Below the pieces are notes generated by a model, which was given only the letters and a program-made list of their open reading frames with translations, did not search any database and was not told where the DNA came from. The position numbers and the translations under genes are program-made. From Octopus sinensis (lineage: Eukaryota): a DNA stretch of 64,000 nucleotides. The stretch is taken from the NCBI RefSeq assembly GCF_006345805.1, contig NC_043011.1, forward strand, positions 17,620,464-17,684,463, written 5' to 3'. Positions 551 to 58,220 of the stretch are shown piece after piece. Position 1 is the stretch's first letter. Each line of letters begins with the position of its first letter.

Positions 551-553
<3 letters not shown>

Positions 554-2640
554 AATAAAATAGAATATATGCATATATATAAACATATATGTACGTACCT
601 ACCTCTACATGTACATATACACGCATATATGTGTACAGGACACCAAAAAGACGTCGAACACATAGAGAGACGAAACACATAGACACAAACCAAGGAACAA
701 GACAAGCAAAAAAAGGAGAGATACAGGACAATAAGCACAACGAAAAATCCCCTTCTTCAGTCGCTAAGATTTCATCTACTAAACGTTTCGAAGGATAAAA
801 TCGAGACGTATACTTCGAAGAAAAATTCCTTCCCGCGAAAAGCAAATCAATTAAAATTCTGAGATCTTTTCGCAGAGGGGTAAAAAAAAAAGCAAGACGG
901 TAACGACAGTACAAACATATAAACAGTAAAAAATATATATATAAACAGTGGAAAAATAAATATATAACAGTGAGAGACAGGACAAGGAGAACAAGATAAG
1001 AAGGGCTGTTAACGCCAGACGAAAAAAGTATTGCAAACGCTGGATTATCGTGGAAGACGAGAGAGGGAAAATTTGTCGACCAGAAGCCTTACAAGGCGGG
1101 CGAGAAAAGACAGGATAGCAGTTACGACGGAAGTATCGTCGCAGATGGATGACGGGAATGGGGGAGGAGGAGCAAGAGGAAGAGAGAGAAGAAGGGGAAT
1201 GGTGTGAGGAGACCATGAAGAATGGTGAAAGGGAGAGAGAGAATGAAGAATGAGAGAGAGAGGAAGAGACAAGTTAAGTGAGGGAAAAAAAGACGAAAAA
1301 GGGAATGGGAGAGAAAGAAAGAAAGATGCAGAGTCGCGTGAGAGTTAATATCAAGGCTAACTTGATAAACAGAACAATCTTACTTAATAGGGTGCGTGCG
1401 TTTAGTCGTATAATATGTTAATAAAATTGAATATATGCATATATATAAAATATATGTACGTACCTACCTCTACATGTACATATACACGCATATATGTGTA
1501 CAGGACACCAAAAAGACGTCGAACACATAGAGAGACGAAACACATAGACACAAACCAAGGAACAAGACAAGCAAAAAAAGGAGAGATACAGGACAATAAG
1601 CACAACGAAAAATCCCCTTCTTCAGTCGCTAAGATTTCATCTACTAAACGTTTCGAAGGATAAAAGCGAGACGTATACTTCGAAGAAAAATTCCTTCCCG
1701 CGAAAAGCAAATCAATTAAAATTCTGAGATCTTTTCGCAGAGGGGTAAAAAAAAAAGCAAGACGGTAACGACAGTACAAACATATAAACAGTAAAAAATA
1801 TATATATAAACAGTGGAAAAATAAATATATAACAGTGAGAGACAGGACAAGGAGAACAAGATAAGAAGGACTGTTAACGCTAGACGAAAAAAGTATTGCA
1901 AACGCTGGATTATCGTGGAAGACGAGAGAGGGAAAATTTGTCGACCAGAAGCCTTACAAGGCGGGCGAGAAAAGACAGGATAGCAGTTACGACGGAAGTA
2001 TCGTCGCAGATGGATGACGGGAATGGGGGAGGAGGAGCAAGAGGAAGAGAGAGAAGAAGGGGAATGGTGTGAGGAGACCATGAAGAATGGTGAAAGGGAG
2101 AGAGAGAATGAAGAATGAGAGAGAGAGGAAGAGACAAGTTAAGTGAGGGAAAAAAAGACGAAAAAGGGAATGGGAGAGAAAGAAAGAAAGATGCAGAGTC
2201 GCGTGAGAGTTACTATCAAGGCTAACTTGATAAACAGAAAATCTTACTTAATAGGGTGCGTGCGTTTAGTCGTATAATATGTTAATAAAATAGAATATAT
2301 GCATATATATAAACATATATGTACGTACCTACCTCTACATGTACATATACACGCATATGTGTGTACAGGACACCAAAAAGACGTCGAACACATAGAGAGA
2401 CGAAACACATAGACACAAACCAAGGAACAAGACAAGCAAAAAAAAGGAGAGATACAGGACAATAAGCACAACGAAAAATCCCCTTCTTCAGTCGCTAAGA
2501 TTTCATCTACTAAACGTTTCGAAGGATAAAAGCGAGACGTATACTTCGAAGAAAAATTCCTTCCCGCGAAAAGCAAATCAATTAAAATTCTGAGATCTTT
2601 TTGCAGAGGGGTAAAAAAAAAAGCAAGACGGTAACGACAG
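551..2640 (-). repeat. Tandem array of an ~865-bp unit (~2.4 copies), probably Penelope-like pLTR/retrozyme-type
   Basis: Near-identical units start at 551, 1417 and 2281, and identical spurious ORFs recur at an 865-bp offset. A diverged solo copy lies in opposite orientation at ~21225-21660. Confidence 0.85.
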
Positions 2641-22839: not shown

Positions 22840-23744
22840 AATTATATACATATTAAAAGTATGTCATAAAACTTATGAAATGTGTAGCTTAGGACGAAGT
22901 AATATTAAGCTGCGTACTTTGATGTGAAGCTACCCATAATATAGTTCTTAGCACCAACTTCTAAAGGCTGCGTAGCTATAAATGTAAGTTTTCATTACTT
23001 CCACAGTGGCTGGGGGTGGGAATGATCAACAAAACAAGTACATTCTCCTGAAAGTAATATATAAATATTCCATATTTTTGTTGTGCTGTATTTGTGTGCC
23101 TAACGTTCTATATTTGAGATCGGTAAGCCACAAAGATGTAACACTTAGAAACATGAAATTATAGAAGGTGATGCTAGTTTAATCTTTGTGCCCTCATTGA
23201 TTAAGTTTCTGGTTTATGTGAACTAAAATTCTACAGGATATTTCCCATGTTTTCTCTATATATTGTGTACTATATTATAAATATTTGCATCTGCATATCT
23301 GTTTCTCTGTCTGTCTCTTTCCACACACAAACATATGTATATGTAACAATATATTCTCTCTTTTACTCTCTTTTACTTGTTTCAGTCATTTGACTGCGGC
23401 CATGCTGGAGCACCGCCTTTAGTCGAGCAAATCGACCCCAGGACTTATTCTTTGTAAGCGCAGTACTTATTCTATCGGTCTCTTTTGCCGAACCGCTAAG
23501 TGACGGGAACGTAAACACATCAGCATTGGTTGTCAAGCAATGCTAGGGGGACAAACACAGACACACAAACACACACATACATATATATATATACACATAT
23601 ATACGACAGGCTTCTTTCAGTTTCCGTCTACCAAATCCACTCACAAGGCATTGGTCGGCCCGGGGCTATAGCAGAAGACACCTGCCCAAGATACCACGCA
23701 GTGGGACTGAACCCGGAACCATGTGGTTGGTTAGCAAGCTACTT

Positions 23745-25882
23745 TATTTCAAAACATTTGCCATAAAGGCAGTACACAGATTAAGTTAGCTTTGCGGGCT
23801 GGACGAGGACATTAATGAGGTGAATGATAATGAAAGAAAGATGATAAGGATGGGAGAAGACAGAAAGCGCCCGCCGACTTTTGCTTCTCTAAAACATTGT
23901 TCTTTTTAAAAAAGATAAACACAAAACGAGGTATTAAGCCTCTTACAATTTTTCCAATTTTTGGACTTAGTAGTCCATTATTAATACAAAACGAGGAATT
24001 AATCCTCTTACAATTTTTCAATTTTTGGACTTAAGTCCATTACTAATAATACATATCGTCCTCGAAATAGCTTGTGCCCGCGCCCTCCACCATCAACCAC
24101 GCCTCCCTCAGAACGTAGTCAAATTCCGAGTTCGCGTCGCCCGGGACCAAGTTATAATCTTCATTGAGCTCCTTTAGCCCTAGCGTCACGTCGAACTCCA
24201 CGGCCTCCATAGCTACCTGCGGAGGCCATTCGGGGTCCTGTGTGAAGGCTAAAGGTGCTCCCTTGTAGTGCTCTTCCATCACTTTTTCAATTTCTCCTCC
24301 TCTATAGAAGAGGACCAATACATTCAGTTCTTTCGTTGGCGGCACAGTTTCCGCCAACGGTATTCCTTCTCTTGTCGGTGGCACAACCCCAACCGACGTA
24401 GTTCCGCGACATTCCGGTGCTACACTGACAGCCGGTAATGTCCCGTTTTTCTTCCTCTTTTTCTTTTTTTTCCCTTTTCAACTGAGTGAGGTTGCGTCTC
24501 TTCCGTGGCTGGAAGATTCGCCTTCCTCTCCTCATCCCTATTATCCTTTGGTGAGCACCCATTGTTGCTCACCTTCCTCTTTCGGCCTCTGTTTGAGGAG
24601 TCCTCTGCTTTCTCGGCCGTTATCGTTCTCTCTTCTAGAGGGGTTTTACTTAACTGTTCCGGGATCCTATTTTGTTCCCGAGGACCGTTCTTCTTTATGT
24701 GGCCGGACTCCAAGCACCGATGACACTTAGGGGGGCGACGCTCAAGCATCACCGGGTACCTGCACCCGGCCATTTTCAAAAAATCTGGAAGAACCAGATT
24801 GGCTGATTGAGTCCACAGGGTCAAAATTGCTTTTGACCCAACCCAAGCAGCCGCAGGAAGAACTTTTACATTGAGGAGCCTAGTTTCGCTGTCACACAGA
24901 CCCCGGCGGATAGTCTCCTCTATCCACTCGGGTTCTATGTCGGGTGGCAGTCCGCAGATCCAAGCTTTCATCAATTTCTTTTTTTTGTACGTGGGCAGGA
25001 ATAAGATTTCCTTACCCTCCAAGGGTTTGCTAGCAAATTTGCAAGCCTCTTCAGGGTGTCAAATAGCAACCACACCTTTGCATATTTGACACCCCTGGAA
25101 ATGAAGTTAATTGTTGGCAAATACTCTTCCAACTCCTTTTCAATTGCCGTCTTTTCGAATAAGGCGATGGTGTCGAGTGCCTTGGAGTAGGTTCTCAACA
25201 CCACCGTCCTATCTTCACGGTCTTTTAACCACTGTTTAGGTGGTATGATTTCCCACTCCAAAAGTTTGTTATTTTTCATTGCCATGTTTTTTTAAAAATA
25301 TATTCAAATTAAACTCAAAAGCAGGAAGAAAAAGTTCAAAAGTCCAAATAAAATTTGATAGATTTTTGAAAAAACAAAAAGGAGAAAGCACAACAGAAGG
25401 GAAGAAATTAACGGAAAGTCGCAATAAAGAAAAAAAAACTTAAATGAAGTTCAAAAGAAAGTTAATAAACAGAAAAAACACAGCAAAAATATTCTGGCCT
25501 TGCGGTACTCCCGGCCTGGGTTGAACCTGGAACGCCGCAACTGCAACACAACCTCCACAAAAATGGGTCCGAAAGGTAATCCAATAGTGGCTTATTTTTA
25601 TAATTTTCTTGCGAAGTAGTAAAACACAAGCAAACAAATTAATTTTTGCGGAGGGGCTACGCCTCCTCAAAAAGCACAATTCTCACTAAAGAGTGAGACC
25701 TTAGACACGACAACAGGCAGAGAAATATATCTGAAGTAAAGTGAAGTTTATTACCCGCAAAAAAATATTAATGCTAGATAACGTTAACTGCTAAATAACA
25801 TTAAGCAAGCAATAAACTTCACTATGCTTCCAAAAATACAGAACGTCTTACCTGTCGCCGAGTCAAAAGTTCAACATTTCAC
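23745..25882 (-). mobile_element. Element A: ORF1-only non-LTR-type retroelement, 5'-truncated, inserted in SINE head
   Basis: Flanked by a GCTACTT duplication (23738-23744 / 25883-25889). It has a single gag-like ORF, no RT, and a 3' end GGCAAATGTTTTGAAATA. Confidence 0.9.
24043..25285 (-). pseudogene. Tx1/L1-type ORF1 protein (~414 aa; RRM-like + zinc knuckle), frameshifted in this assembly
   Basis: ORF pieces 24971-25285, 24420-25022 and 24043-24384. PDFLKMAGCRYPVMLERRPPKCHRCLESGHIKKNG (last Cys replaced by Gly). Both frameshifts lie in homopolymer runs. Confidence 0.85.
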
Positions 25883-26136
25883 GCTACTTACCACACAGCC
25901 ACTCCTGCGCCTATATGTATTTATAAAATATATATAAAATTATATATATAATATATATGAAATTGCATCTTTCACTCGGATTGAGGATGACATACAAGAG
26001 CGTGTCTGAGTGTATTCACAAATTGTTTGAAGCGTCACCTTACTCAACGCTAAAACAAATTGGTAATCGTTGAAAGGAAAGTGTGCTGCTCTCTACCACA
26101 GTCCGTTCCAAGAATCCAACCCCAAATATTTTGTTC

Positions 26137-36892: not shown

Positions 36893-37047
36893 TATATACA
36901 TATATACAACAGGCTTCTTTCAGTTTCCGTCTATCAAATCCACTCACAAGGCATTGGTCGGCCCGGGGCTATAGCAGAAGACACTTGCCCAAGATGCTAC
37001 GCAGTGGGACTGAACCCGGAACCATGTGGTTCGTTAGCAAGCTACTT

Positions 37048-39277
37048 TATTTCAAAACATATGCCATAAAGGCAGTACACAGATTAAGTTAGCTTTGCGG
37101 GGTGGACGAGGACATTAATGAGGTGAATGATAATGAAAGAAAGATGATAAGGATGGGAGAAGACAAAAAGCGCCCGCCGGCTTTCGCTTCTCTAAAACAT
37201 TGTTCTTTTTAAAGATAAACACAAAACGAGGTATTAAACCTCTTACAATTTTTCCAAATTTTGGACTTAGTAGTCCATTATTAATACAAAACGAGGTATT
37301 AATCCTCTTACAATTTTACAATTTTTGGACTTAAGTCCATTACTAATAATACATATCGTCCTTGAAATAGCTTGTGCCCGCGCCCTCCACCATCAACCAC
37401 GCCTCCCTCAGAACGTAATCAAGTTCCGAGTTCGAGTCGCCCGGGACCAAGTTATAATCTTCATTGAGCTCCTTTAGCCCAAGCGTCACGTCGAACGCCA
37501 CGGCCTCCACAGCTACCTGCAGAGGCCATTCGGGGTCCTGTGTGAAGGCTAAAGGTGCTCCCTTGTAGTGCTCTTCCATCACTTTTTCAATTTCTCCTCC
37601 CTTATAGAAGAGAACCAATACGTTCAGTTCTTTCGTTGGCGGAACAGTTCCCGCCAACGGTATTCCTTCTCTTGTCGGTGGCACAACCCCAACCGACGTA
37701 GTTCCGGGACATTCCGGTGCTACACTGACAGCCGGTAATGTCCCGTTTTTCTTCCTCTTTTTCCTTTTTTTTCCCTTTTCAACTGAGTGAGGGTACGTCT
37801 CCTCCGTGGCTGGAAGATTCGCCTTCCTCTCCTCATCCCTATTATCCTTTGGTGAGCACCCATTGTTGCTCACCTTCCTCTTTCGGCCTCTGTTTGAGGA
37901 GTCCTCTGCTTTCTCGGCCGTTGTCGTTCCCTCTTCTAGAGGGGTTTTACTTAACTGTTCCGGGATCCTATTTTGTTCCCGAGGACAGTTCTTCTTTATG
38001 TGGCCGGATTCCAAGCACCGATGACACTTAGGGGGGCGACCCTCAAGCATCACCGGGTACCTGCACCCGGCCATTTTCAAAAAATCTGGAAGAACTAGAT
38101 TGGCTGATTGGGTCCACAGGGTCAAAATTGCTTTTGACCCAAACCAAGCAGTCGCAGGAAGAACTTTTACATTGAGGAGCTTAGTTTCGCTGTCACACAG
38201 ACCCCGGCGGATAGTCTCCTCTATCCACTCGGGTTCTATATCGGGTGGCAATGCGCATATCCAAGCTTTTATCAATTTCTTTTTTTTTGTACGTGGGCAG
38301 GAATAAGATTTCCTTACCCTCCAAGGGTTTGCTAGCAAATTTGCAAGCCTCTTCAGGGGTGTCAAATAGCAACCACACCGTTGCATATTTGACACCCCTG
38401 GAAATGAATTTAATTGTTGGCAAATACTCTTCCAACTCCTCCTCAATTGCCGTCTTTTCGAATAAGGCGATGGTGTCGAGTGCCTTGGAGTAGGTTCTCA
38501 ACACCACCGTCCTATCTTCACGGTCTTTTAACCACTTTTTAGGTGGTATGATTTTCCACTCCAAAATTTTGTTATTTTTCATTGCCATGTTTTTTTTAAA
38601 ATATATACAAATTAAACTCAAAAAGCAGGAACAAAAAAGTTCAAAAGTTCAAATAAAATTTGATGGATTTTTGAAAAAACAAAAAGGAGAAAGCACAACA
38701 GAAGGGAAGAAATCAACGGAAAGTCGCAATAAAGAAAAAAACAAAAAGGGGGGGGTTAAATGAAGTTCAAAAGAAAGTTAATAAACAGAAAAAAACACAG
38801 CAAAAATATTCTGGCCTTGCGGTACCCCCGGCCTGGGTTGAACCTGGAACGCCGCAACTGCAACACAACCCCCACAAAAATGGGTCCGAAAGGTAATCCA
38901 ATAGTGGCTTACTTTTATAATTTTTTTGCGAAGTAGTAGTTTTCACAATTCATAAAAGTTCTTCACAGCACAATACAATTCTCACAATTACGTGAGAAAA
39001 ATATTTACTCACTTTATCGAAGACGGATACGCCCACAAAAATTTTCTCAGCTAGAAAAATATATTTGCCACATGTCGGCAGAATCAGAATTCTGAATCCA
39101 GTAGGACTTCCTGCCTGTAAAAAACAATTCTCAACAAAAACTCCCACTGGACCCAGAAAACAGAATCTTACCTTACATGGGGCTTCCAAAGTTTTCAATT
39201 CAAGACGGCTTCAATAGCACATCTTCACCGCTTCAGTGCCAAACACAACACTGACTCGCACATGCGCAGAAGCAACC
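37048..39277 (-). mobile_element. Element A': ORF1-only retroelement (A-type body, B-type 5' leader)
   Basis: Highly similar to element A over 37048-38937. Near-identical to 41049-41393 over 38932-39277. Confidence 0.9.
37343..38588 (-). CDS. Tx1/L1-type ORF1 protein (~415 aa; RRM-like + CCHC), one apparent frameshift
   Basis: MAMKNNKILEW...TVVLRTYSK...FLPTY, then a poly-T slip (~38280-38288), then LIKAWICALPPDI...EGRPPKCHRCLESGHIKKNCP...DDMYY*. Confidence 0.8.
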
Positions 39278-39293
39278 GTTAGCAAAGCTACTT

Positions 39294-41393
39294 TATTTTA
39301 TATTATTTGCCACTAGGGCAGCACACAGAGTAGTAGCTACAGGCTGGACAAGGACATTAATGGATGATGGTGGTGGTGGATGAAGATGGAGATGGGAGAA
39401 GTCGAAAGCGCCCGCCGACTATCGCTTCTCTAAAACAATGTTTCAATAAATACATTTAATAAAATGTTCACAATGATTCAAATTACATATTTTAGAGGAG
39501 GCAATAAACCTCCTCTTCAACATGTTTAAAAAATGTTCAACAATTCTCCTCGTCAGGTCCCCGAAGCAAATTGTCTTGCCGCCTGCAGACAACTCTGCGA
39601 CGACAAGTCGGGGCCTGCAAAGAGAAAAGTAAAATCTTTCCTCTCAAAGGTCTCTGCGACCGTTGACAAAATATCTTCCGTTACTTTTTCCGCAGCTACC
39701 AGCGGAGGCCATAACGGACTCCTTGAGCCGACCGTGCCCTTGCGTTCTCGGTCACCCAAGCCATTCAAAAACCTTTCCACCTCCTCTCCCTTGTGGTAAA
39801 GGAGGAGAAGCATCTCTTCTTCACAGGAAGGGACCTCACACTGCTCCGTCAGTGGCACACTTCCCACTGGCGGAGCCTTGTCCGCGGGTGGCACACATCC
39901 CACCCGCGGCTCCGTCGGCGACACAGAAACGTCAGTCATCCGACCTCTCCCTTTTCTCCTCCTTCTTTTGGGGGAGACTGCTGACCCAGGGGACTCCGTC
40001 ACCAGACACGGGGGATTGCTATCCCCCTCCGCCACCTGAGCGTTCTTTGGCGGGCAACCATTGTTGCTCGCCTGTCTCTTTCTTTTCGTGGAGGCAACCT
40101 CCTCCACGACTTCCACCGTCTCCCCCTCCAATGAGGGGGCGGCGGGCGCCTTTTCCCCTTTCGGATCCGGGGCACCACCACGGCCCCCGGGACAATTCCT
40201 CCTGATATGTCCGGGCTTCAGGCACAGGTGACACTTGGGGGGGGGCGACCCTCGAGTATCACCGGGTACCTGTGCCCAGCCATTCTCAGGAAGTCCGGGA
40301 ATTTCATTTCTCCCACGGCCACCGGTGTCCACAGGGTCAAAGTTGCCTTTGACCCCTCCCAGGCGACCGCGGGAGCCATTTTCACACTCAGTAGTCTGGG
40401 TCCGCTATCCCCCAGGCCTCGCCGGATGGTCTTCTCGATCCATTCCGCCTCCGTGCCCGGGGGCAGCCCACACACACAGGCTCTTTTTACTTTTCTGCCA
40501 CAATACGAGGGGAGGAACAAAATTTCCTCTCCCTCCAGTGGCTCGCTAGCAAATCTGCTAGCTTCCTCGGGGGTATCAAATAGCAACCGCACCGTTGCAA
40601 ATTTATTCCCCCGAGAAATAAACTTTATCGTTGGTAGGTGGTCCCCCAACTCTTTATCTATGGTGCTCCTGTCGAAGAGGGCAATAGCTCCACACGACCT
40701 AGAATAGGTTCGTAGGACCACCGTCCTCTTCTCAAGACTTTCAATCCACTGCTTGGGTGGGACAACCTCCCATTCCAAAGCAGTGGTTTCTTTTGTTGCC
40801 ATGTTTTTTTTTTGTTTTTTTTTGTTTTTTTAAAAATGTATTCAGAATAAAACTAAAAAAACGAGAAGAAAAGGAAATCCGAAGAAAGTCACAGTGAAAA
40901 AAGGAGAGAGTCAAATAAAGTTAAAAAGAAAGTAAAATAAAGTTAAAAAGAAAGTCAATAACACAGCAAAATCCTTTTGGCCATTTGGTACTCCCGGCCT
41001 AAATCGAACCAGGAACGCACAACTTCCACAAAAATTGGTGAAAAATTGGTAGTAGTTTTCACAATTCATAAAAGTTCTTCACAGCACAATACAATTCTCA
41101 CAATTACGTGAGAAAAATATTTACTCACTTTATCGAAGACGGATACGCCCACAAAAATTTTCTCAACGAGAAAAATATATTTGCCACATGTCGGCAGAAT
41201 CAGAATTCTGAATCCAGTAGGACTTCCTGCCTGTAAAAAACAATTCTCAACAAAAACTCCCACTGGACCCAGAAAACAGAATCTTACCTTACATGGGGCT
41301 TCCAAAGTTTTCAATTCAAGACGGCTTCAATAGCACATCTTCACCGCTTCAGTGCCAAACACAACACTGACTCGCACATGCGCAGAAGCAACC
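39294..41393 (-). mobile_element. Element B: ORF1-only retroelement
   Basis: Bounded by GTTAGCAAAGCTACTT at 39278-39293 and 41394-41409. Its 3' UTR motifs are shared with A and C. Confidence 0.9.
39553..40802 (-). CDS. Tx1/L1-type ORF1 protein (~416 aa), one apparent frameshift
   Basis: ORFs 40218-40802 and 39553-40332 join at a G10 run (40237-40246): FPDFLRMAGHRYPVILEGRPP / PKCHLCLKPGHIRRNCP. Confidence 0.8.
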
Positions 41394-41409
41394 GTTAGCA
41401 AAGCTACTT

Positions 41410-43437
41410 TATTTCATTTAATTTGCCACTAGGGCAGCACACAGAGTAGCTACGGGCTGGACAAAGACATTAATGGATGATGGTGGTGGTGGATGAAGAT
41501 GGTGATGGGAGAAGTCAGAAAGCGCCAGCCGACTTTTGCTTCTCTAAAACAATGTTCTTTTTTTTCAATAATTTACAAAATTTCAAAAATTACAAAAATT
41601 CAAAAAATTTTCACAAAAATTTCAATTTACAATTTACACTTTTAAATGTCTCTTCAGAGGCAATAAACCTCTCTCACAATGTAACACAATTACAATTTTA
41701 CGTTACCCGACCGATGAACTCTCTTGCTTTAATGACGCAATCGTCCATCGTCAGGCTTCCGCATACAGGTATGACTTGCAAGAGATCCTCCGGGAAAGAA
41801 TTCTCGATCCTGCACATATCCTTTTCGAGTAGGACCTCCGCAGCCAGCTGCGAAGGCCACTCGGGATACTCCATGCAGGACCGAAGTCCCTCCCATTGGT
41901 TTCTCTTCCTCATCCTACCTATTTCATTTTCTACAGTACCTCCTTTATGGAAGAGGACTACATAAAATTTCTCCGGCATCACAACCGCCGGAGGACACAT
42001 GGGAGACGCCGTCTGGGTGTTACAGTCCGCTGGTGGCGTCCCGTTCCTCTTTTTCTTTTTCTTTTTACGCTGGGCCTCGGGAGGTTGAGGTTCCGGTGCT
42101 ATACGCACCGGGTCCTCTTTTTCTTCCGCAGCCTCCGGTTCCTTTGGTGGGTCGCCATTGCTCCCCACTTTTCTTTTTCTTTTGGAGGAGGATTTTTCCC
42201 CCTCCTCACTTTGTTTCTCTCCCTCCATTGGTGGGGCAGGGAGAGGCTCTGATATTATCTTCTCCAGGATCCTACTCTGGTTCCTGGGGCAGTTTTTCTT
42301 AATGTGGCCGGTCTCCGAACACAGGTGACACTTGGGGGGGGGGGCGTCCCTCAAGCATCACCGGATACTTGGACCCGGCCATCTTCAAGAAGTCCGGCAA
42401 AACCAGACTCTTGGCCGACTGGGTCCACAGAGTCAAAGTAGCCTTTGCCCCTTCCCAGTCAGCCGCAGGCTGCATTCTCACGTTCAGGATCTTGGCGCTA
42501 CCACCACTCAGACCCCGGCGGATGGAATCTTCCACCCACTCGGGCTCGAAGCCGGGCGGCAGGCCGCAGACCCATAATCGTATCAATTTTTCCCCTTATA
42601 GCTTGGGAGAAACAGAATCTCTTCGCCCTCAATGGGCTTACTCGCGAAATCGCAAGCTGCTTTAGGGGAGTCAAACAGCAACCAAATCGTTGCTTATTTG
42701 GCTCCCCGTTGAATATGTTTAACGGCTGGCATATAGTCTGTCAGCTCGTTCATAATGGTGGCTTTCGGGAAAACCATTATGGTGTCGAGTGACCTCGAAT
42801 ATGTCCTCAACACCACGGTTTTGTCCTCGAGCTCAATTCCCACACAGTGAAATTCCTTGTCATAACGTAAGAAAAACAGTTCAAAATGTTACAAAATAAA
42901 TTAGACACAGAAAGGAGAATGAAAAAAGCAACAGAAGCGAAGAAATAAAATTAAAATGGCAGTTCAAAAAAAGTTCTTTTTTTTTTACAAATGAATGATA
43001 GACGGAGAAAGAGAGTTCAAATTCAGACAAAGGAATTAATTTTTCTTTTTTTTTTGTTCACTTTTTCGGCCGAAAATTGTATTCCAGGCCAAATACACTG
43101 TTGGTAAAACACCTTGGTAAAATAATCCTTGGTAAACCCCGTGGATAACACAATGACAATTTCAAAAATAATTTTTGCAGACGGACTACGCCGCCTCAAA
43201 AACACAATTTTCTTTACACTCGACAACAGGCAGAAAAATTACATCCGGAGCAAAGTGGAGCTTTATTATCTGCTAAAAAATATTTAATGCTGAAAAACAT
43301 TAATGCAAGTAATAAAACTTCACTTCGCTCGCAAAAACACAAAATGCCTACCTGCAGTCGAGTCGAAAGTTCAACAATTCACGTTGAAACAATGTGGCAT
43401 CTGGAGCAGCAAAATAACACGTCTAACTCAGACGAAG
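41410..43437 (-). mobile_element. Element C: ORF1-only retroelement
   Basis: Bounded by GTTAGCAAAGCTACTT at 41394-41409 and 43438-43453. Its 5' leader is homologous to that of element A. Confidence 0.9.
41698..42863 (-). pseudogene. Tx1/L1-type ORF1, several frameshifts
   Basis: EDKTVVLRTYSRSLDTI (~42775-42830), IRLWVCGLPPGFEPEWVEDSIRRGL...LPDFLKMAGSKYPVMLEGRPP, then a G-run slip, then KCHLCSETGHIKKNCP. The start position is approximate. Confidence 0.75.
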
Positions 43438-44119
43438 GTTAGCAAAGCTACTTACCACACAGCCACTCCTGCGCCTGTATGTATGTATACCTATAAAACA
43501 TAAGTATATAGAATGTGTCCTGAATCAAACAATCCTTCATAAATCAATCCCTTACAATATTAATGACTTAGAAGCAGCGAAATCAACAATCTACTTTCTG
43601 ACTTCTATCCCTCGAAACCAAGTAGGGATTGCAAACTATCATATAAGTTACATAGCCGTTACCCTGCGTATTAAATCACCAATTACAATTATTGAAACGT
43701 AACAGTACAGTCTTAAATCAATTTATAGCTGTACAGTTGATATAAACTATATCATATTCCGTTGTTGTCTAGAAATCCAAGATCATATGTTCATGTAGAA
43801 GCATGGATGCTTGCCAGGGAAATGACTTTTGGAATTCGGAACCATCATTTATGTAGAAGTCATCTAAACCAAACTTACACTGCGTGTCGCATATTGAATT
43901 TACAAAAGCATGGATTAAGTAAAGCCAAAGAGACTAAAACGCACACCTGCTTTAATCTATTCGATAAGAGTTATGTTTCAATCTTAACAAACCACAAATA
44001 GATATGGAGAGCATGCCTTGAACTACTGGATATACAGATCATTATTTTACGAAAAATAAAGTATGTATTATTAGAACTATACAGAAATTATTGCCCTTGA
44101 ATACTTATAACAACTGCGA

Positions 44120-46278: not shown

Positions 46279-46439
46279 GCTAATCGTCTTTACGCCGCGT
46301 GCCACCATCAGCAGGCGTCTTCTACTGTAGCCTCGGATAGATGAAAAGCTTGGGAGTTGATTTGGTAGACGGTAACCGATATATATATATAATACTGAAT
46401 GTATTTTTGAAATATCTGATAACATACATATAGAATTGC

Positions 46440-47515
46440 CCAAATATATCAATTGATATTTTTTCACCTTTGTTACAATCAACTGAAATGTAAACAGTAT
46501 TCGAGCAGTTTTACTGTTCAACTTCAAAAAGAGACGTAAAGCAACTGAAACTGCTCGTGATATGAACGAAACCCTTGGAGAAAAAATGACCAGTGAATGA
46601 TCAGCTCAAAAATGGTTCAAACGATCTCACAGTGGAGACCTGAGCCTTGATGATCGTGACCGTAATGGACGCCCATCGGTCATCGATGACGGTCAATTAA
46701 AGACCGTCATTGTGAAAGAGCCACGTAAAAATCCCCGAGAACTGGCAAAAGAAACTGACTGCACCATTTGCATGCGACCGGAAAATCAAAAGAGTTTGAC
46801 AAATGTTGTGAATGAAAATCAGGAAAAGCGCAGAAACGAAATTTGCTCGCCGCTTCTTCTCTGTAACCAGACCAATCAATTTCTGTACAATAATAAAACA
46901 AGTACTTCGCAGTGGTTGGATCATAATGAAGCACCTTGAAAAATGCAAACCTTCCCTAAACCTAAGCTCTTCAAAAAAGAGGTTCTGGTGACTGATTGGT
47001 GGTGTAATGCTGGATTCATTCGCTATAACATCTTAAAACCCAGAAAACCATTACTGTAGAAACATATTCCTATGAAATTGCCAAAATGAACGAAATACTG
47101 CTACTTCTCCGTCCAAGACTGATCAACAGAAGGGGATCAATAATTCGTAATAACAATGATCGACCCCACGTTTCAATAATGACGCTGCAAAAGCTGAAGG
47201 AGCTTAGCTACAAATTCCCCACCCAGCTTGTTCCCCAGTCCTTTGTTTTACCGACTACCAGTTTTTCAATCACATTGTTGGTTTCTTGCAAGGGGAGTTC
47301 AAAAATTAAACCGAGGCTGATGGTACGTCCAAACAGTTCATCGGCTACAGAAATCCAGACTCCTATGTTAGAGGAATATATAAACTTGTAAGCCGTCGGG
47401 GAAAATGTCTTGATTGTAATGGTACTTACTGTGATGAATAAAATTTCTGCCGTGTTGAAATATATTGTGATGAATTTCAGGTTTCAAAATGTTGCTTAAT
47501 CTTTACTCAGCCTGA
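46440..47515 (+). mobile_element. Decayed mariner transposon
   Basis: IRAVLLFNFKKRRKATETARDMNETLG...KWFKRSHSGDLSLDDRDRNGRPS and LINRRGSIIRNNNDRPHVS...LQKLKELSY. The right TIR ends ...TTTACTCAGCCTGA-TA. Confidence 0.85.
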
Positions 47516-47656
47516 TATATATATATATGTATGTATGTATGTATGTAGGTATGTATGTATGCATATTGCATGTATGCATGTATGTATGTATGTATGTATA
47601 TACATAGATATGTATATGTGTCTATAAATATATATATATATATATATATATACATA

Positions 47657-54339: not shown

Positions 54340-55394
54340 AACTGTTAAATCTCGACAGATGATAGCCGTCCCATCGAGACACACACTACACCCCATCACT
54401 CAAGAGAACCACTCTTTGATGAGCCCTCAGATGAAGACGTAATATTAAAAGTTAGAGTGGAGGGCAGGATCCCTCGTTGCTACAAATGTGACCAAAATGG
54501 TCACATTAGGATAGACTGTCCTGTCCTCCACTACTCGCCGAAGCCCGTGAGCAGGAAGGAAACCCGCACCTCCGCCTCCAGTAGAAACCAATGCCGAAGC
54601 AGAGGTGGGTGGGAACAAGAACGACGAATGGGAAAAAGCGGGGAAAAGGAAAAGAGAGAAAGGGAAGAAGACGCATCCTCTGAATGATGAGTCCCCTCGT
54701 ATACCTACCTGTCACCCACCCAAACCCACTCTGTCCCACCCTGCCCCTGCAGTCACCAATGCTGTCCCTGCGTAACCCGACACGGAAAAAATGAGCACAT
54801 TCACACAAGACCTCCAGATTTCTCAACGCTTGCCCTGTGAGGAAAGAAGGAAAAAAGAGAAGTACATCGTTTTTAACGGCGAGTCAAATGCCAGGCTTGT
54901 CAATGAAATATATAGCTGGGACAATATAATACGAGTGAACATGCCTTAGCGATAAGGTGCCCAGGAATCTGAGTTGCATTACAGCCGACCCTATATATAT
55001 ACGGAACGATAAAAATGTCTGAAGAGAACGTTAAATACGTGGCCAGGAACATCGATTCCAATGAGATATCTATAATGGTGAGTTAATTTGAGTTAAAACA
55101 AATGTTTGGAATAGAATTTAGTAATGCTTATCATGTTTAAATTTTTTTAAATTACAAAAATATTATAGAACTTCGAAAAAATGTGTATAATTGTAAAGTT
55201 AAATGAAGTCGCCAGAACGTGGGCTCGAGTGGCTTCATTGCCTTGCTCATTGTAATTTTATTTTATTTTTATTCATCCTTCCATCCGCTTTTTATTCTTG
55301 TCTGCCCACTTTCATTGTACTTGTTTGTATATGTACTGTCGCTTCTATATTTATCCCCTGAGCAATAAAGCATTCGCTGTGAGCAATAAAGAAT
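54340..55394 (+). mobile_element. Element E: decayed ORF1-only element, 5' end missing
   Basis: VILKVRVEGRIPRCYKCDQNGHIRIDCP (CCHC). The 3' end CCCTGAGCAATAAAG(C/A)AT is like that of element D. The left boundary is approximate. Confidence 0.7.
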
Positions 55395-55418
55395 TCGTTG
55401 TTACAATCAGCTGGACCG

Positions 55419-57204
55419 ACTTGGACGCGGATGCTGTTTGTGCGTCGTTAGAGAGATAAGTCAAAGATTATTGAATTGGAATCATATTTATTATTATTTC
55501 CTGTGTCTTGAGACATGTGTTTTTACTGTCCTGCGGCAGTTTTGTTAAGGCTGTCCACATTTTATGAAGTGGGAAACGCATTACTTACGTCTTAATGATG
55601 TATGAAGATTTGAATTCTCCAGACATAACGACGCCTGAAGAAAAATTACTGAGAAATGTGGTTACTGCAGACCGGAAGAGGGGGAAAATGAAGGTGGGAA
55701 AATAAATGAACTTTGCACCTGCGGCAGTTGAAACCAAAGAAGAAATTTGTTTTAAGAAGATGGAGTGGAAGAAATACAGGGATATATCCTGCGAAGGGAG
55801 GGGCACGAAGTAAAAGTGATCCCCACCATACTCTAGTACAGTTGCAAAGGACATGTAAAAAAGACAATAATATATAGAAACTATAGTCTGGATGCAAAGA
55901 GATTGGAGATAGTGTCAAAACTACAAGTTAAGAAGGCATTGAGACCCGTCTGGCAGGATGTCACCTGCCTTGCCAGAGGGAGAAATACGCAACTGTGGGG
56001 GTGCGTTTTGCATCCGAAGAGAAGGCCAGGTAACATTCGGTAGTCACCCTAAAAACGGATCAGGTAATACTCCTGCCTACTTACCTTGGAAGTCGTGCTT
56101 CCAGAGTAAGGGTGAAAGATATTTCCCTGGAGGTAGATGTCGCCTGACTGGTGGCTGCAATACTGCGGGGTGTAGAATTTAAGGTACAGGTCCTCCAAGT
56201 AACGAGAACGCCACTGAAGAATTGGCAAGAGCAGACCCTAGACAAAATCATCCAGTCTTCTCTGTAGGACCTTGAACGTATGGTTGACACTATAATGATG
56301 GGTGAGGAGGTGATATTACGAGTTGCAGTGAAGGGTAGGAAGCTCCGGTGTTATAAACGTGGAGAGAAAGGCCACATAAGAGTAGAGTGTTCTCCGCCGA
56401 CCAAAAAAAAAAACAAAAAAGAAACAGTAGTACTACAGGCCCGAAAGAAAATCGCGCCACCACCTACTGAAATGACAAGTGATACAGGAGGGTGTGTGGA
56501 GGAGCCCGGCAAGGAGGTTAGGAAAGAGGCACAAATAAAGGAAGATAAAACAGAAAAATGGAAGCCGGTACGCCGGACAAAAAAGAGAAATTAGGGAATT
56601 AATGTTAGCCTCCATCCTACACCCATGCGAACACCACCCTCTCCACTATGCCACACCCTCACCCTGAAGGCACCAACTCTCACCCAACCTCACCAGACAA
56701 TGATACTTTAACTACAAATACACAGGAGCCCTAATTTTCCCAACCCACATCCTGTGAAAAAAGTTGCATTGTTTTCCACGGTGAGTCATTCGATGAGGTG
56801 TGCGAAGAAATAATCAGGACGTGTTGATAAAAGTTGACATTAAAGGGTTTGAGGGAGTGCCCTCGCATGTTAAATGTGTGTTAATTGACAGAAAGAACTC
56901 GCAAAGATTAAGTGAGAATTACGGGACAAACGTAAATTGATACCAAGGGAATGCAGTCAACGGTAAGCCATCATGAACTTTTAAAAGAATTTAACATGGA
57001 TACATTAAGTGATTATTAAATGATTGAATTGTTTTTAAAATGTTTCAACTCGGTTACTTGGATTGTGGGATCCGAATAGCCTCCATGTACTGCATTCATT
57101 TTTTATACTATCCTTCTCATTCGTTTTATTTTTCCCCACTTGTGAGTTGTTGTCCATCTTTGTACTGTCCCTCTATGTTTAGCCCCCTGTGGGCAATAAA
57201 GAAA
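55419..57204 (+). mobile_element. Element D: decayed ORF1-only element
   Basis: IIYRNYS, LLPTYLGSRASRVRVKDI..EVDVA*LVAAI and VILRVAVKGRKLRCYKRGEKGHIRVECS are collinear with the A/B/C ORF1. The 3' end is CCCTGTGGGCAATAAAGAAA. Confidence 0.75.
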
Positions 57205-58220
57205 TCGTTGTTACAATCATCTGGACTGCCGAAGGTCAATATTCGAGCAATTTTGCTGTCTACTTCATAAAAGGACGTAAAGCAACTGAAACTGCTTGCG
57301 ATATGAACAAAACGTTTGGTGAGGAAATGATCAGTGAGTGGTCAGCTCGAAAATGGTTTAAACGATTTCGCATGGAGACCTGAGTTTTTGAAGATCGTGA
57401 GCGTAGTGGATGCCCATCAGTCGTCGATGGCAGTCAATTAAAGAACGTCATTGACAGAGATCCACATAAACCACTCAAGAACTGGCAAAATAACATCGAG
57501 TTATTCAGAAAACTGCCTGCAACCATTTGCATGTCCTTGTAAAATCAAAAAGGCTCGACGAATTGATACCACACTATTTAAATGAAAGTCAGAAAATGCG
57601 CAGATATTAAGTTTGCTTGTCGCTCTTTCCCCTTAACCAGAACGAACCCATTTCTCGACCGTATTGTAACTTGCTATGAAAAACGGATTCTGTACAGTAA
57701 TAAAAACAAACGTTCTTCACAGTGGTTGGTGCAAAATGAAGCACCGAAAACTGTCCCTAAACCCGAGCTCTTCAAAAAGAAGGTTATAGTGATTGCTTTG
57801 TTGTGTACTGTTGGAATCATTCACTATAACTTCTTAAAACCCGGAAGAACAATTACTGCAGAAACATATTGCTATGAATTTGTCAAAATCAACGAAAAAC
57901 CGCCACTCCTCCGACACGGACTGGTCAATAGAAGTTGAGGAATTTTGGCTACCAAGTTTTTCCACCCCAGATTATTCTTCAGACATTTCTTCTACCGACT
58001 ACCACTTTTTCAAGCAACTTGATGGTTTCCTGCGAGAGAAGGAGTTTAAGCATCAAGCTGATGCTGAAAGTACCTTCAAAGAGTTCATCAGCTCCAGATT
58101 TTATATATTACCGGAATAAACAAACTTGTAACTCGTTGGTAAAAGTGTGTCGATGGCAATGGTACTTGCTTTGATGAATAAATTTTCCGCATTGTTGAAA
58201 TATATTGTGATCAATTTATG
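57205..58220 (+). mobile_element. Decayed mariner transposon (same family as 46440-47515)
   Basis: NIRAILL..FIKGRKATETACDMNKTFGEE..SEWSARKWFKRFR, FLDRIVTCYEKRILYSN, and PDYSSDISSTDYHFFKQLDGFL. Confidence 0.9.

What the first reader, a model, noticed from the sequence alone, without database searches (positions are those of the whole stretch)
54340..57228. Second, older array of related ORF1-only elements stacked at a mariner transposase start
Seen: E and D both end in GCAATAAAGAA followed by TCGTTGTTACAATCA(G/T)CTGGAC(C/T)G (55395-55418 and 57205-57228, 1810 bp apart). The second copy runs directly into the mariner coding region, and the other mariner copy has the homologous TTGTTACAATCAACTG at ~46470. 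D and E encode ORF1 remnants collinear with A/B/C. Inference: a sister lineage uses the same stacking strategy with a different mobile-element target, suggesting a family of transposon-targeting hyperparasites with switchable specificity. The upstream mariner end was not found.
Basis: partly seen in the sequence, partly recalled or inferred. Interest (0 to 1): 0.75.

Follow-up and report, generated by a model that had tools for sequence, protein, structure and literature searches.

The report
Half-LINEs stacking at mariner transposase start
In this likely octopus genome, several old jumping-gene families that keep only their RNA-binding gene, and a full-length relative that likely lends them its enzymes, sit singly or in head-to-tail stacks at one spot just before the start codon of a mariner transposase, while their closest kin land in other repeats instead.

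Summary
The shared motif is native mariner 5' UTR ending 2 nt before the transposase ATG: all 30 exact-motif sites examined were mariners, 29 empty. It is duplicated (15-18 bp, not 24) around inserted elements. D is a 1.76-kb ORF1-only family. Of 25 other copies found with a mariner-free query, 20 end at this site. E and a third ORF1-only family (F) use it too, as does an autonomous APE-RT-zinc-finger L1/Tx1-type LINE sharing D's last 48 nt; these mix in tandem arrays. 5'-truncated copies between duplications indicate retrotransposition, and hitchhiking with the mariner is not supported. The real sister of E is not A/B/C but family G, which lands in the SINE site; mariner-targeting ORF1s are not one clade. 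Specificity likely comes from the helper's ORF2, not from D/E. This closely parallels crocodilian Tx1-Mar/SINEU plus HAL1. New aspects: a protein-coding, helper-switching ORF1-only clade, and a target at an autonomous transposase start. Verdict: new variant of a known kind, interest 0.5.

The parts
54432..55395 (+). Element E, 3' half of an ORF1-only element (zinc knuckle about 54478-54519, C-terminal domain, 3' UTR); its 5' half and the mariner 5' end are missing
   Evidence: 80% to E-family consensus positions 783-1727; zf-CCHC E=2e-5; family copies
55360..55401 (+). 21-bp imperfect tandem duplication spanning E's tail and the first target bases (likely later slippage)
   Evidence: sequence
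55396..55412 (+). Target-site duplication copy between E and D (mariner 5' UTR sequence)
55413..57205 (+). Element D, full-length decayed ORF1-only element (1.79 kb); ORF1 remnant about 55595-57019 with degenerate knuckle about 56349-56390; last 48 nt 94% identical to the autonomous partner's 3' end
   Evidence: 84% to D consensus over its whole length; consensus has one long ORF and no ORF2
57206..57222 (+). Target-site duplication copy at D's 3' end, continuous with the mariner
57223..58217 (+). Decayed mariner transposase body of the target family; ATG deleted, neither terminal inverted repeat found
   Evidence: Transposase_1; 88% to mariner consensus; TIR search
46404..47521 (+). Related mariner copy (about 75% identical) with an unoccupied single site at about 46469-46486 and a 3' TIR

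Best explanation
D and E are ORF1-only non-LTR retroelements that sit, each flanked by a 15-18-bp duplication, at one site in the 5' UTR of a mariner, just before the transposase ATG; they were likely copied there in trans by the ORF2 protein of a full-length L1/Tx1-type LINE that occupies the same site. Shown: the site, orientation (sense to the transposase), duplication, absence of ORF2, the partner with endonuclease-RT-zinc finger and a shared 3' end, mixed arrays, and independent insertion. Inferred: the partner's APE endonuclease nicks the bottom strand at the left edge of the motif, about 165 nt inside the left TIR. Its RT primes on RNA bound through the shared tail, and a second nick 15-18 nt downstream makes the duplication. 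The duplication regenerates the site, so later elements of any family using this helper stack head to tail. ORF1p (predicted two RRMs plus a CCHC knuckle, under purifying selection) would package its own RNA. Target changes within the ORF1-only clade would come from changing helper; in family G this coincides with gaining the SINE-targeting helper's tail. Insertion would cut that mariner copy's transposase off from its promoter, but only some 3-10% of sites are filled. In this window a later deletion likely removed the mariner 5' end and E's 5' half.
For: Empty sites: 29 of 30 exact-motif loci are empty mariners and 1 is a filled 5' junction. D 3' ends, from a query without mariner or tail: 20 of 25 other distinct copies end at the motif or mariner, 1 more lies inside a mariner array. 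D 5' ends: 17 of 27 follow the mariner 5' UTR, 5 follow a sister tail plus motif. E: 8 of its 10 closest relatives end at the motif, 1 keeps part of it. Of 30 tail+motif junctions examined, the upstream element is D in 7, E in 3, F in 9 and the autonomous LINE in 11; downstream is mariner in 23 and another element in 6. Partner: RVT_1, zf-RVT, zf-CCHC and weak Exo_endo_phos in its copies; a 4.7-kb copy lies between mariner 5' end and body (L179). 5'-truncated copies of about 49 nt (L310) and 135 nt (L327) lie between duplications in whole mariners. Independence: four D-subclade copies share 232 of 6452 derived sites, their mariner flanks 12 of 3223. ORF1 dN/dS is 0.14-0.24 among D/E/F/G consensuses. 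The AlphaFold model of a G-family ORF1 (pLDDT 85) matches tandem-RRM proteins. G's tail matches the SINE-targeting autonomous copy L251.
Against: No biochemical test: helper identity rests on shared site, tail and age. The D-type tail is not mariner-specific. Similar tails end autonomous families that target (ATT)n, (TATC)n or another site, family H, and a very abundant SINE whose copies in the fetched loci were not at the mariner. So tail sharing alone does not explain why D/E/F follow this helper. 3 of 25 D-like hits (66-75% identical) and 1 of 10 E relatives have other flanks. A second, diverged ORF2 family also ends at the motif in L259, so there may be more than one helper. No intact copy of D, E or the partner was seen. 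Consensuses come from 6-27 decayed copies each, and BLAST and pattern sampling favour less decayed loci.
Confidence: 0.85

Rival explanations
1. One ancestral mariner acquired D, and the composite spread by DNA transposition (hitchhiking), so there is little target specificity.
For: Both TIRs survive around many filled copies. D (about 11% from consensus) and the mariner (9%) are of similar age. One pair of loci 20 kb apart (L036, L192) shares derived changes.
Against: D-filled mariner bodies share no more derived sites than empty ones (0.0051 vs 0.0051; permutation p=0.38). D has a supported subclade that its flanks lack. Four families, mixed arrays and 5'-truncated copies use the same site.
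Confidence: 0.04
2. D, E and F are each separate ORF2-deletion (or ORF2-spliced) derivatives of autonomous mariner-targeting LINEs, as with recurrent HAL1 origins, and inherited the target from their parent; no helper switching took place.
For: D shares part of its 5' UTR and its tail with autonomous copies. Recurrent origin is reported for HAL1 (PMC5753468, passage) and for Drosophila telomeric elements (PMC13534243, passages). Autonomous parents may be extinct or unsampled.
Against: D/E/F/G/H ORF1s group together (91/95) apart from the partner's ORF1 (52-61% identity). E pairs with SINE-targeting G and F with H; a mariner-targeting clade is rejected (AU p=1.5e-5 with the partner, 1.2e-4 without). 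D, E and G share a C-terminal domain not found in five autonomous ORF1s, and none of 30 loci bearing it is followed by an ORF2 start.
Confidence: 0.3
3. The motif travels with the element RNA (read-through or inherited landing pad) and guides insertion by base pairing, so the apparent duplication is partly RNA-templated.
For: AATAAA lies only about 5 nt before the junction and there is no poly(A) tract. Pairing with downstream target sequence is reported for R1Bm/SART1 (PMC7265360, passages). An earlier scan note (e1-8665938) proposes this for another family.
Against: No intact D 5' end carried the motif outside a mariner or array context. A recurrent variant at motif position 13 is no more frequent in 3' copies than in empty sites (8/47 vs 11/100, p=0.31; hand counts). 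L179 carries the same variant base in both copies, as an ordinary duplication would.
Confidence: 0.2

Closest known systems
Tx1-Mar LINEs and SINEU passengers in Mariner-N4_AMi of crocodilians (Kojima 2015, PMC4494074; read parts 1-4 of 5)
   Same: A LINE group prefers fixed sites in a mariner; non-autonomous passengers share the site; tandem copies sandwich a 16-bp duplication; related families target microsatellites, LTR elements or Harbinger; hitchhiking was excluded with truncated copies.
   Different: Passengers here encode a conserved ORF1 and share the helper's 3' tail, whereas SINEUs are short snRNA-derived elements with no shared tail found. The site is single, sense-oriented and directly before the ATG of a transposase-coding mariner. 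The host is a cephalopod. RT kinship to Tx1-Mar could not be tested.
Xenopus Tx1L in Tx1D (as described in PMC4494074; the primary paper PMC85248 was not held)
   Same: LINE with endonuclease-determined specificity for a DNA transposon.
   Different: Target is a non-autonomous piggyBac; no ORF1-only passengers are described in what I read.
HAL1 (half-L1) of mammals (PMC5753468, passages; primary paper PMC2923044 not held)
   Same: Non-autonomous LINE derivative encoding only ORF1p.
   Different: HAL1 derives from mammalian L1 and arose several times; no sequence-specific target is given in the passage read. Here several families form one ORF1 clade with different strict targets.
ORF1-only telomeric retrotransposons of Drosophila, HeT-A type (PMC13534243, passages)
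   Same: ORF1-only families (about 40% of telomeric families) in head-to-tail arrays mixed with ORF1+ORF2 families in one niche.
   Different: Jockey clade, chromosome ends rather than an internal nick site, and one niche rather than switching among repeats.

Membership tests
Tx1 clade non-LTR retrotransposons | ORF2 with APE endonuclease, RT and C-terminal zinc finger | tested here: met
   Met by the autonomous partner (endonuclease match weak, E=0.004) and by intact sister families; absent from D/E themselves
Tx1 clade non-LTR retrotransposons | RT phylogeny grouping with named Tx1 elements rather than L1 proper | not testable with these tools
   No labelled Tx1 reference was returned; a 50%-identical relative's best solved match is L1 ORF2p, 1e-72. 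Placement is L1/Tx1-type; Tx1 is inferred
Tx1 clade non-LTR retrotransposons | ORF1 with RRM(s) and CCHC knuckle (feature recalled, not from a call) | tested here: met
   zf-CCHC; model of a G-family ORF1 matches tandem-RRM proteins, best E=2.6e-4 with low TM-scores of 0.2-0.3
Tx1 clade non-LTR retrotransposons | Target-sequence preference with target-site duplication | tested here: met
   sister families at (TC)n, (ATT)n, (TATC)n and a SINE
Tx1-Mar | Insertion into Mariner-N4_AMi at about positions 240 or 830 | tested here: not met
   The target is a transposase-coding mariner at about position 165, sense orientation. No sequence comparison with Mariner-N4_AMi was possible
Tx1-Mar | RT clusters with Keno and crocodilian Tx1-Mar | not testable with these tools
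   no reference sequences held
HAL1 | Encodes only ORF1p and moves as a unit | tested here: met
   1.76-kb consensus with one ORF; full copies bounded by duplications
HAL1 | Derived from mammalian L1 | tested here: not met
   ORF1 relatives are cephalopod-type knuckle proteins; works like HAL1 but is not a member
mariner (Tc1/mariner superfamily), the target | TIRs with TA flanks and a mariner transposase | tested here: met
   TIRs after TA in empty copies; Transposase_1; SETMAR 7e-26 and Mos1 2e-24
mariner (Tc1/mariner superfamily), the target | DD34D spacing and subfamily | not tested
   consensus covered only the first 212 codons

The most novel reading that the evidence does not exclude
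D, E, F, G and H are one old, self-standing lineage of ORF1-only retroelements with their own C-terminal domain. The lineage survives by changing which target-specific LINE it parasitises, partly by capturing a new 3' tail, and so moved between a mariner transposase start, a SINE head and a third repeat. It is a three-level parasite whose address is set by a swappable RNA tail and which silences the transposase it lands on.
Probability: 0.45. Interest if true: 0.7.

Novelty: new variant of a known kind. Interest (0 to 1): 0.5.

Why it matters
It extends transposon-targeting LINEs with passengers from crocodilians to a cephalopod, and to the start codon of an autonomous transposase. It gives a natural series of closely related APE-type LINEs (RT 60-75% alike) with at least five different targets, some young and intact. 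That makes two questions directly testable: how APE endonucleases change specificity, and how a helper chooses RNA in trans. The E/G sister pair, with like ORF1 but different tail and target, is a ready tail-swap experiment relevant to programming site-specific retrotransposons.

Tried and rejected
Hitchhiking was tested and not supported. RNA-templated duplication was tested by variant frequencies and not supported. A mariner 'escape variant': the second motif base was altered in 36 of 100 empty sites against 6 of 59 filled copies (hand counts, p=3e-4). However, 20 such variant copies simply show more CpG decay throughout and no non-CpG diagnostic site among the top differences, so I read this as methylation and sampling bias. 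A SINE-targeting ORF1 clade (G with A/B/C) was not rejected (AU p=0.10; long branch). The RT tree of autonomous families left the mariner partner unresolved (the L259 row is poorly reconstructed). Order of insertion in arrays could not be fixed from divergences. No relatives were found in metagenome contigs. No RNA holder was listed. Rfam gave only sub-threshold matches on five loci, none naming H's target. Atlas hits for an Octopus bimaculoides homologue (ZCCHC3-like, score 0.87) are leads only. Literature: seven searches found no description of ORF1-only, mariner-targeting elements in cephalopods. The O. vulgaris repeat paper lists L1-Tx1 families without targets in the passages seen (PMC13282606); its supplement and Repbase/Dfam entries were not seen and may already hold these families. 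PMC9004415 (passages) added nothing.

Full report
Setting. The window is G000:C15:17620464-17684463 of a 2.72-Gb genome. An octopod host is inferred from named homologues: an Octopus bimaculoides CCHC protein for ORF1 and an Argonauta hians protein for RT. I call the abundant tRNA-headed repeat simply 'the SINE'; its identity with the published OK-SINE is recalled, not tested. Family letters F, G, H and X1-X4 are mine.

Observation. Both 24-mers are where stated, each after an AATAAAGAA tail. The second continues into a decayed mariner transposase. D and E carry ORF1 remnants collinear with B, C1 and C2, and an intact ORF2 finds nothing in the window. E homology begins at 54432 and D spans 55413-57205. 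No mariner 5' end or TIR lies near the array. Contigs from four coded runs cover most of the stretch, and two bridge the E/D junction, so it is not an assembly artefact.

The motif is mariner sequence. An 18-mer core has 159 exact matches and the reversed control 0. All 30 examined (the first 30 by position) are mariners: 29 empty, with 5' UTR on the left and the ATG region on the right, and 1 a filled 5' junction. At least 8 of the 100 listed positions coincide with junctions found in other calls, so roughly 3-10% of sites are filled. The mariner has TA-flanked TIRs about 165 nt upstream of the site, an open consensus over the 212 codons aligned, star-like ancestry and 9% divergence. It matches SETMAR and Mos1. 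Comparing junction classes gives a duplication of 15-18 bp.

Target specificity. My first query included mariner bases and was biased. A query with neither mariner nor tail gave 32 matches, of which 30 were fetched. Dropping the self hit, three split pieces and one identical duplicate leaves 25 copies: 20 end at the motif or directly on the mariner, 1 lost its end inside a mariner array, 1 has no 3' end, and 3 distant hits (66-75% identical) have other flanks. With D's 5' end as query (42 matches, 30 fetched, 27 distinct non-self), 17 follow the mariner 5' UTR, 5 follow a sister tail plus motif, and 5 lack an informative junction; one of those 5 is an autonomous copy joined to an unrelated tail. 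Of E's 10 closest relatives, 8 end at the motif, 1 keeps part of it and 1 does not. A tail+motif pattern gave 33 matches, control 0. In the 30 fetched (2 are the window's own), upstream is D in 7, E in 3, F in 9 and the autonomous LINE in 11; downstream is mariner in 23, another element in 6, and 10 nt of mariner in 1.

The autonomous partner. Several loci sharing only D's last 46-48 nt turned out to be ORF2 elements at the same site. They carry RVT_1, zf-RVT, a weak Exo_endo_phos match and an ORF1 knuckle. L179 is a 4.7-kb copy between mariner 5' end and body; the consensus RT is open and copies are 6-10% diverged. Arrays mix families: F-partner, F-D, F-E-partner, E-partner, D-D and D-partner. 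Copies truncated to about 49 and 135 nt lie between duplications in whole mariners, the signature of target-primed reverse transcription.

Independence from mariner transposition. D-filled mariner bodies share derived sites at the background rate (p=0.38; 53 of the bodies extracted passed the length filter). D has a six-copy subclade with support 1.0. For the four members with flanks, D shares 232 of 6452 derived sites and the flanks 12 of 3223; across 36 pairs there is no correlation.

The wider radiation. The RT query gave 150 scored matches, many with open frames over 1000 aa. Twenty fetched regions resolve into young families at (TC)n, (ATT)n, (TATC)n and one less clear site, often in tandem. 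An ORF2 copy (L251) ends at the SINE site with an A/B-type tail, and all 20 A/B copies printed end at that site. ORF1 searches revealed further ORF1-only families: F at the mariner, G at the SINE site, and H before a third, unidentified repeat shared by three loci. H's ORF1 rests on one copy.

ORF1 tree against target. On about 200 core residues of 14 rows (consensuses or single copies; 11 further degraded or redundant rows were left out), D, E, F, G and H form one group (91/95). E pairs with G (100/99) and F with H (96/93); A/B/C are a long branch at 22-32% identity. A mariner-targeting clade is rejected (AU p=1.5e-5; ORF1-only p=1.2e-4); a SINE-targeting clade is not (p=0.10). dN/dS among D/E/F/G is 0.14-0.24. 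D, E and G share a C-terminal domain not detected in F, H, A/B/C or five autonomous ORF1s. None of 30 fetched loci with that domain (of 57 matches) is followed by an ORF2 start. A G-family ORF1 folds confidently and resembles tandem-RRM proteins. G's last 25-45 nt resemble the SINE-targeting helper, while E's resemble the mariner helper (judged by eye). Against a simple tail code, D-type tails also end X2, X3, X4, H and an abundant SINE.

Mechanism. Shown: site, duplication, orientation, ORF content, partner, mixed arrays, independent insertion, and non-monophyly of target use. Inferred: nicking by the partner's endonuclease, trans-priming through the shared tail, regeneration of the site by the duplication, ORF1 acting in cis, helper switching, and silencing of the occupied transposase. 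An internal promoter is more likely than borrowing the mariner's, because none of the mid-array junctions examined carries transduced mariner UTR, but no RNA data bear on it.

Comparison and verdict. Kojima 2015 (PMC4494074, parts 1-4 of 5 read) describes Tx1-Mar LINEs and SINEU passengers in a crocodilian mariner, tandem copies around a duplication, and sister families with other targets. HAL1 (PMC5753468, passages) and Drosophila telomeric elements (PMC13534243, passages) are ORF1-only precedents. PMC7265360 (abstract, passages) covers RNA-target pairing. The system works like Tx1-Mar with HAL1-like passengers. It is not a member of either by the tests possible, and Tx1-clade placement is inferred. 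Seven literature searches found no account of this case; Repbase, Dfam and supplements were not seen. Earlier scan notes describe the SINE-targeting counterpart in this and other genomes; a sequence look-up of this junction found none. Rating: new variant of a known kind, interest 0.5; most novel reading, probability 0.45, interest 0.7.

Noticed in passing
L019, L038, L041, L043 and others; window 57168-57205: A very abundant SINE ends in nearly the same 45-50-nt tail as D and the mariner-targeting LINE, often in tandem, yet was not at the mariner site in the loci seen; a candidate SINE partner of this LINE radiation.
   Followed up: partly
L171-L190: Young, partly intact autonomous families target (TC)n (5.5 kb, 95-98% identical copies), (ATT)n and (TATC)n and form tandem arrays, like Kibi/Koshi.
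   Followed up: partly
L251 8138; L252, L253 (family G); window 23740-25900, 37044-43450 (A, B, C1, C2): The SINE A-box site is used by an autonomous ORF2 element, by A/B/C and by family G, whose ORF1 is sister to E.
   Followed up: yes
L200 2880, L068 1668, L076: Family H and E-like relatives end before the same unidentified repeat; no Rfam match reached threshold.
   Followed up: partly
L259 1154-3263: A second, diverged ORF2 family also ends at the mariner motif upstream of an E copy, so the site may have more than one autonomous user.
   Followed up: partly
L208 2668-2943; L260 4449-4670: An 80-90-aa C-terminal ORF1 domain is shared by D, E and G and has 57 matches in the genome; its function was not examined.
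   Followed up: partly
L036 and L192 (C17, 20 kb apart): Two filled mariners share derived changes in both duplication copies and flanks, but only one holds the autonomous element; possibly a local duplication followed by loss between the repeats.
   Followed up: no
window 23606-25286 and 36909-38589: A and B copies with their SINE flanks are 96% identical over 1.7 kb, 13.3 kb apart.
   Followed up: no
window 552-2640: Three tandem 865-bp near-identical units containing the 3' part of a repeated element.
   Followed up: no
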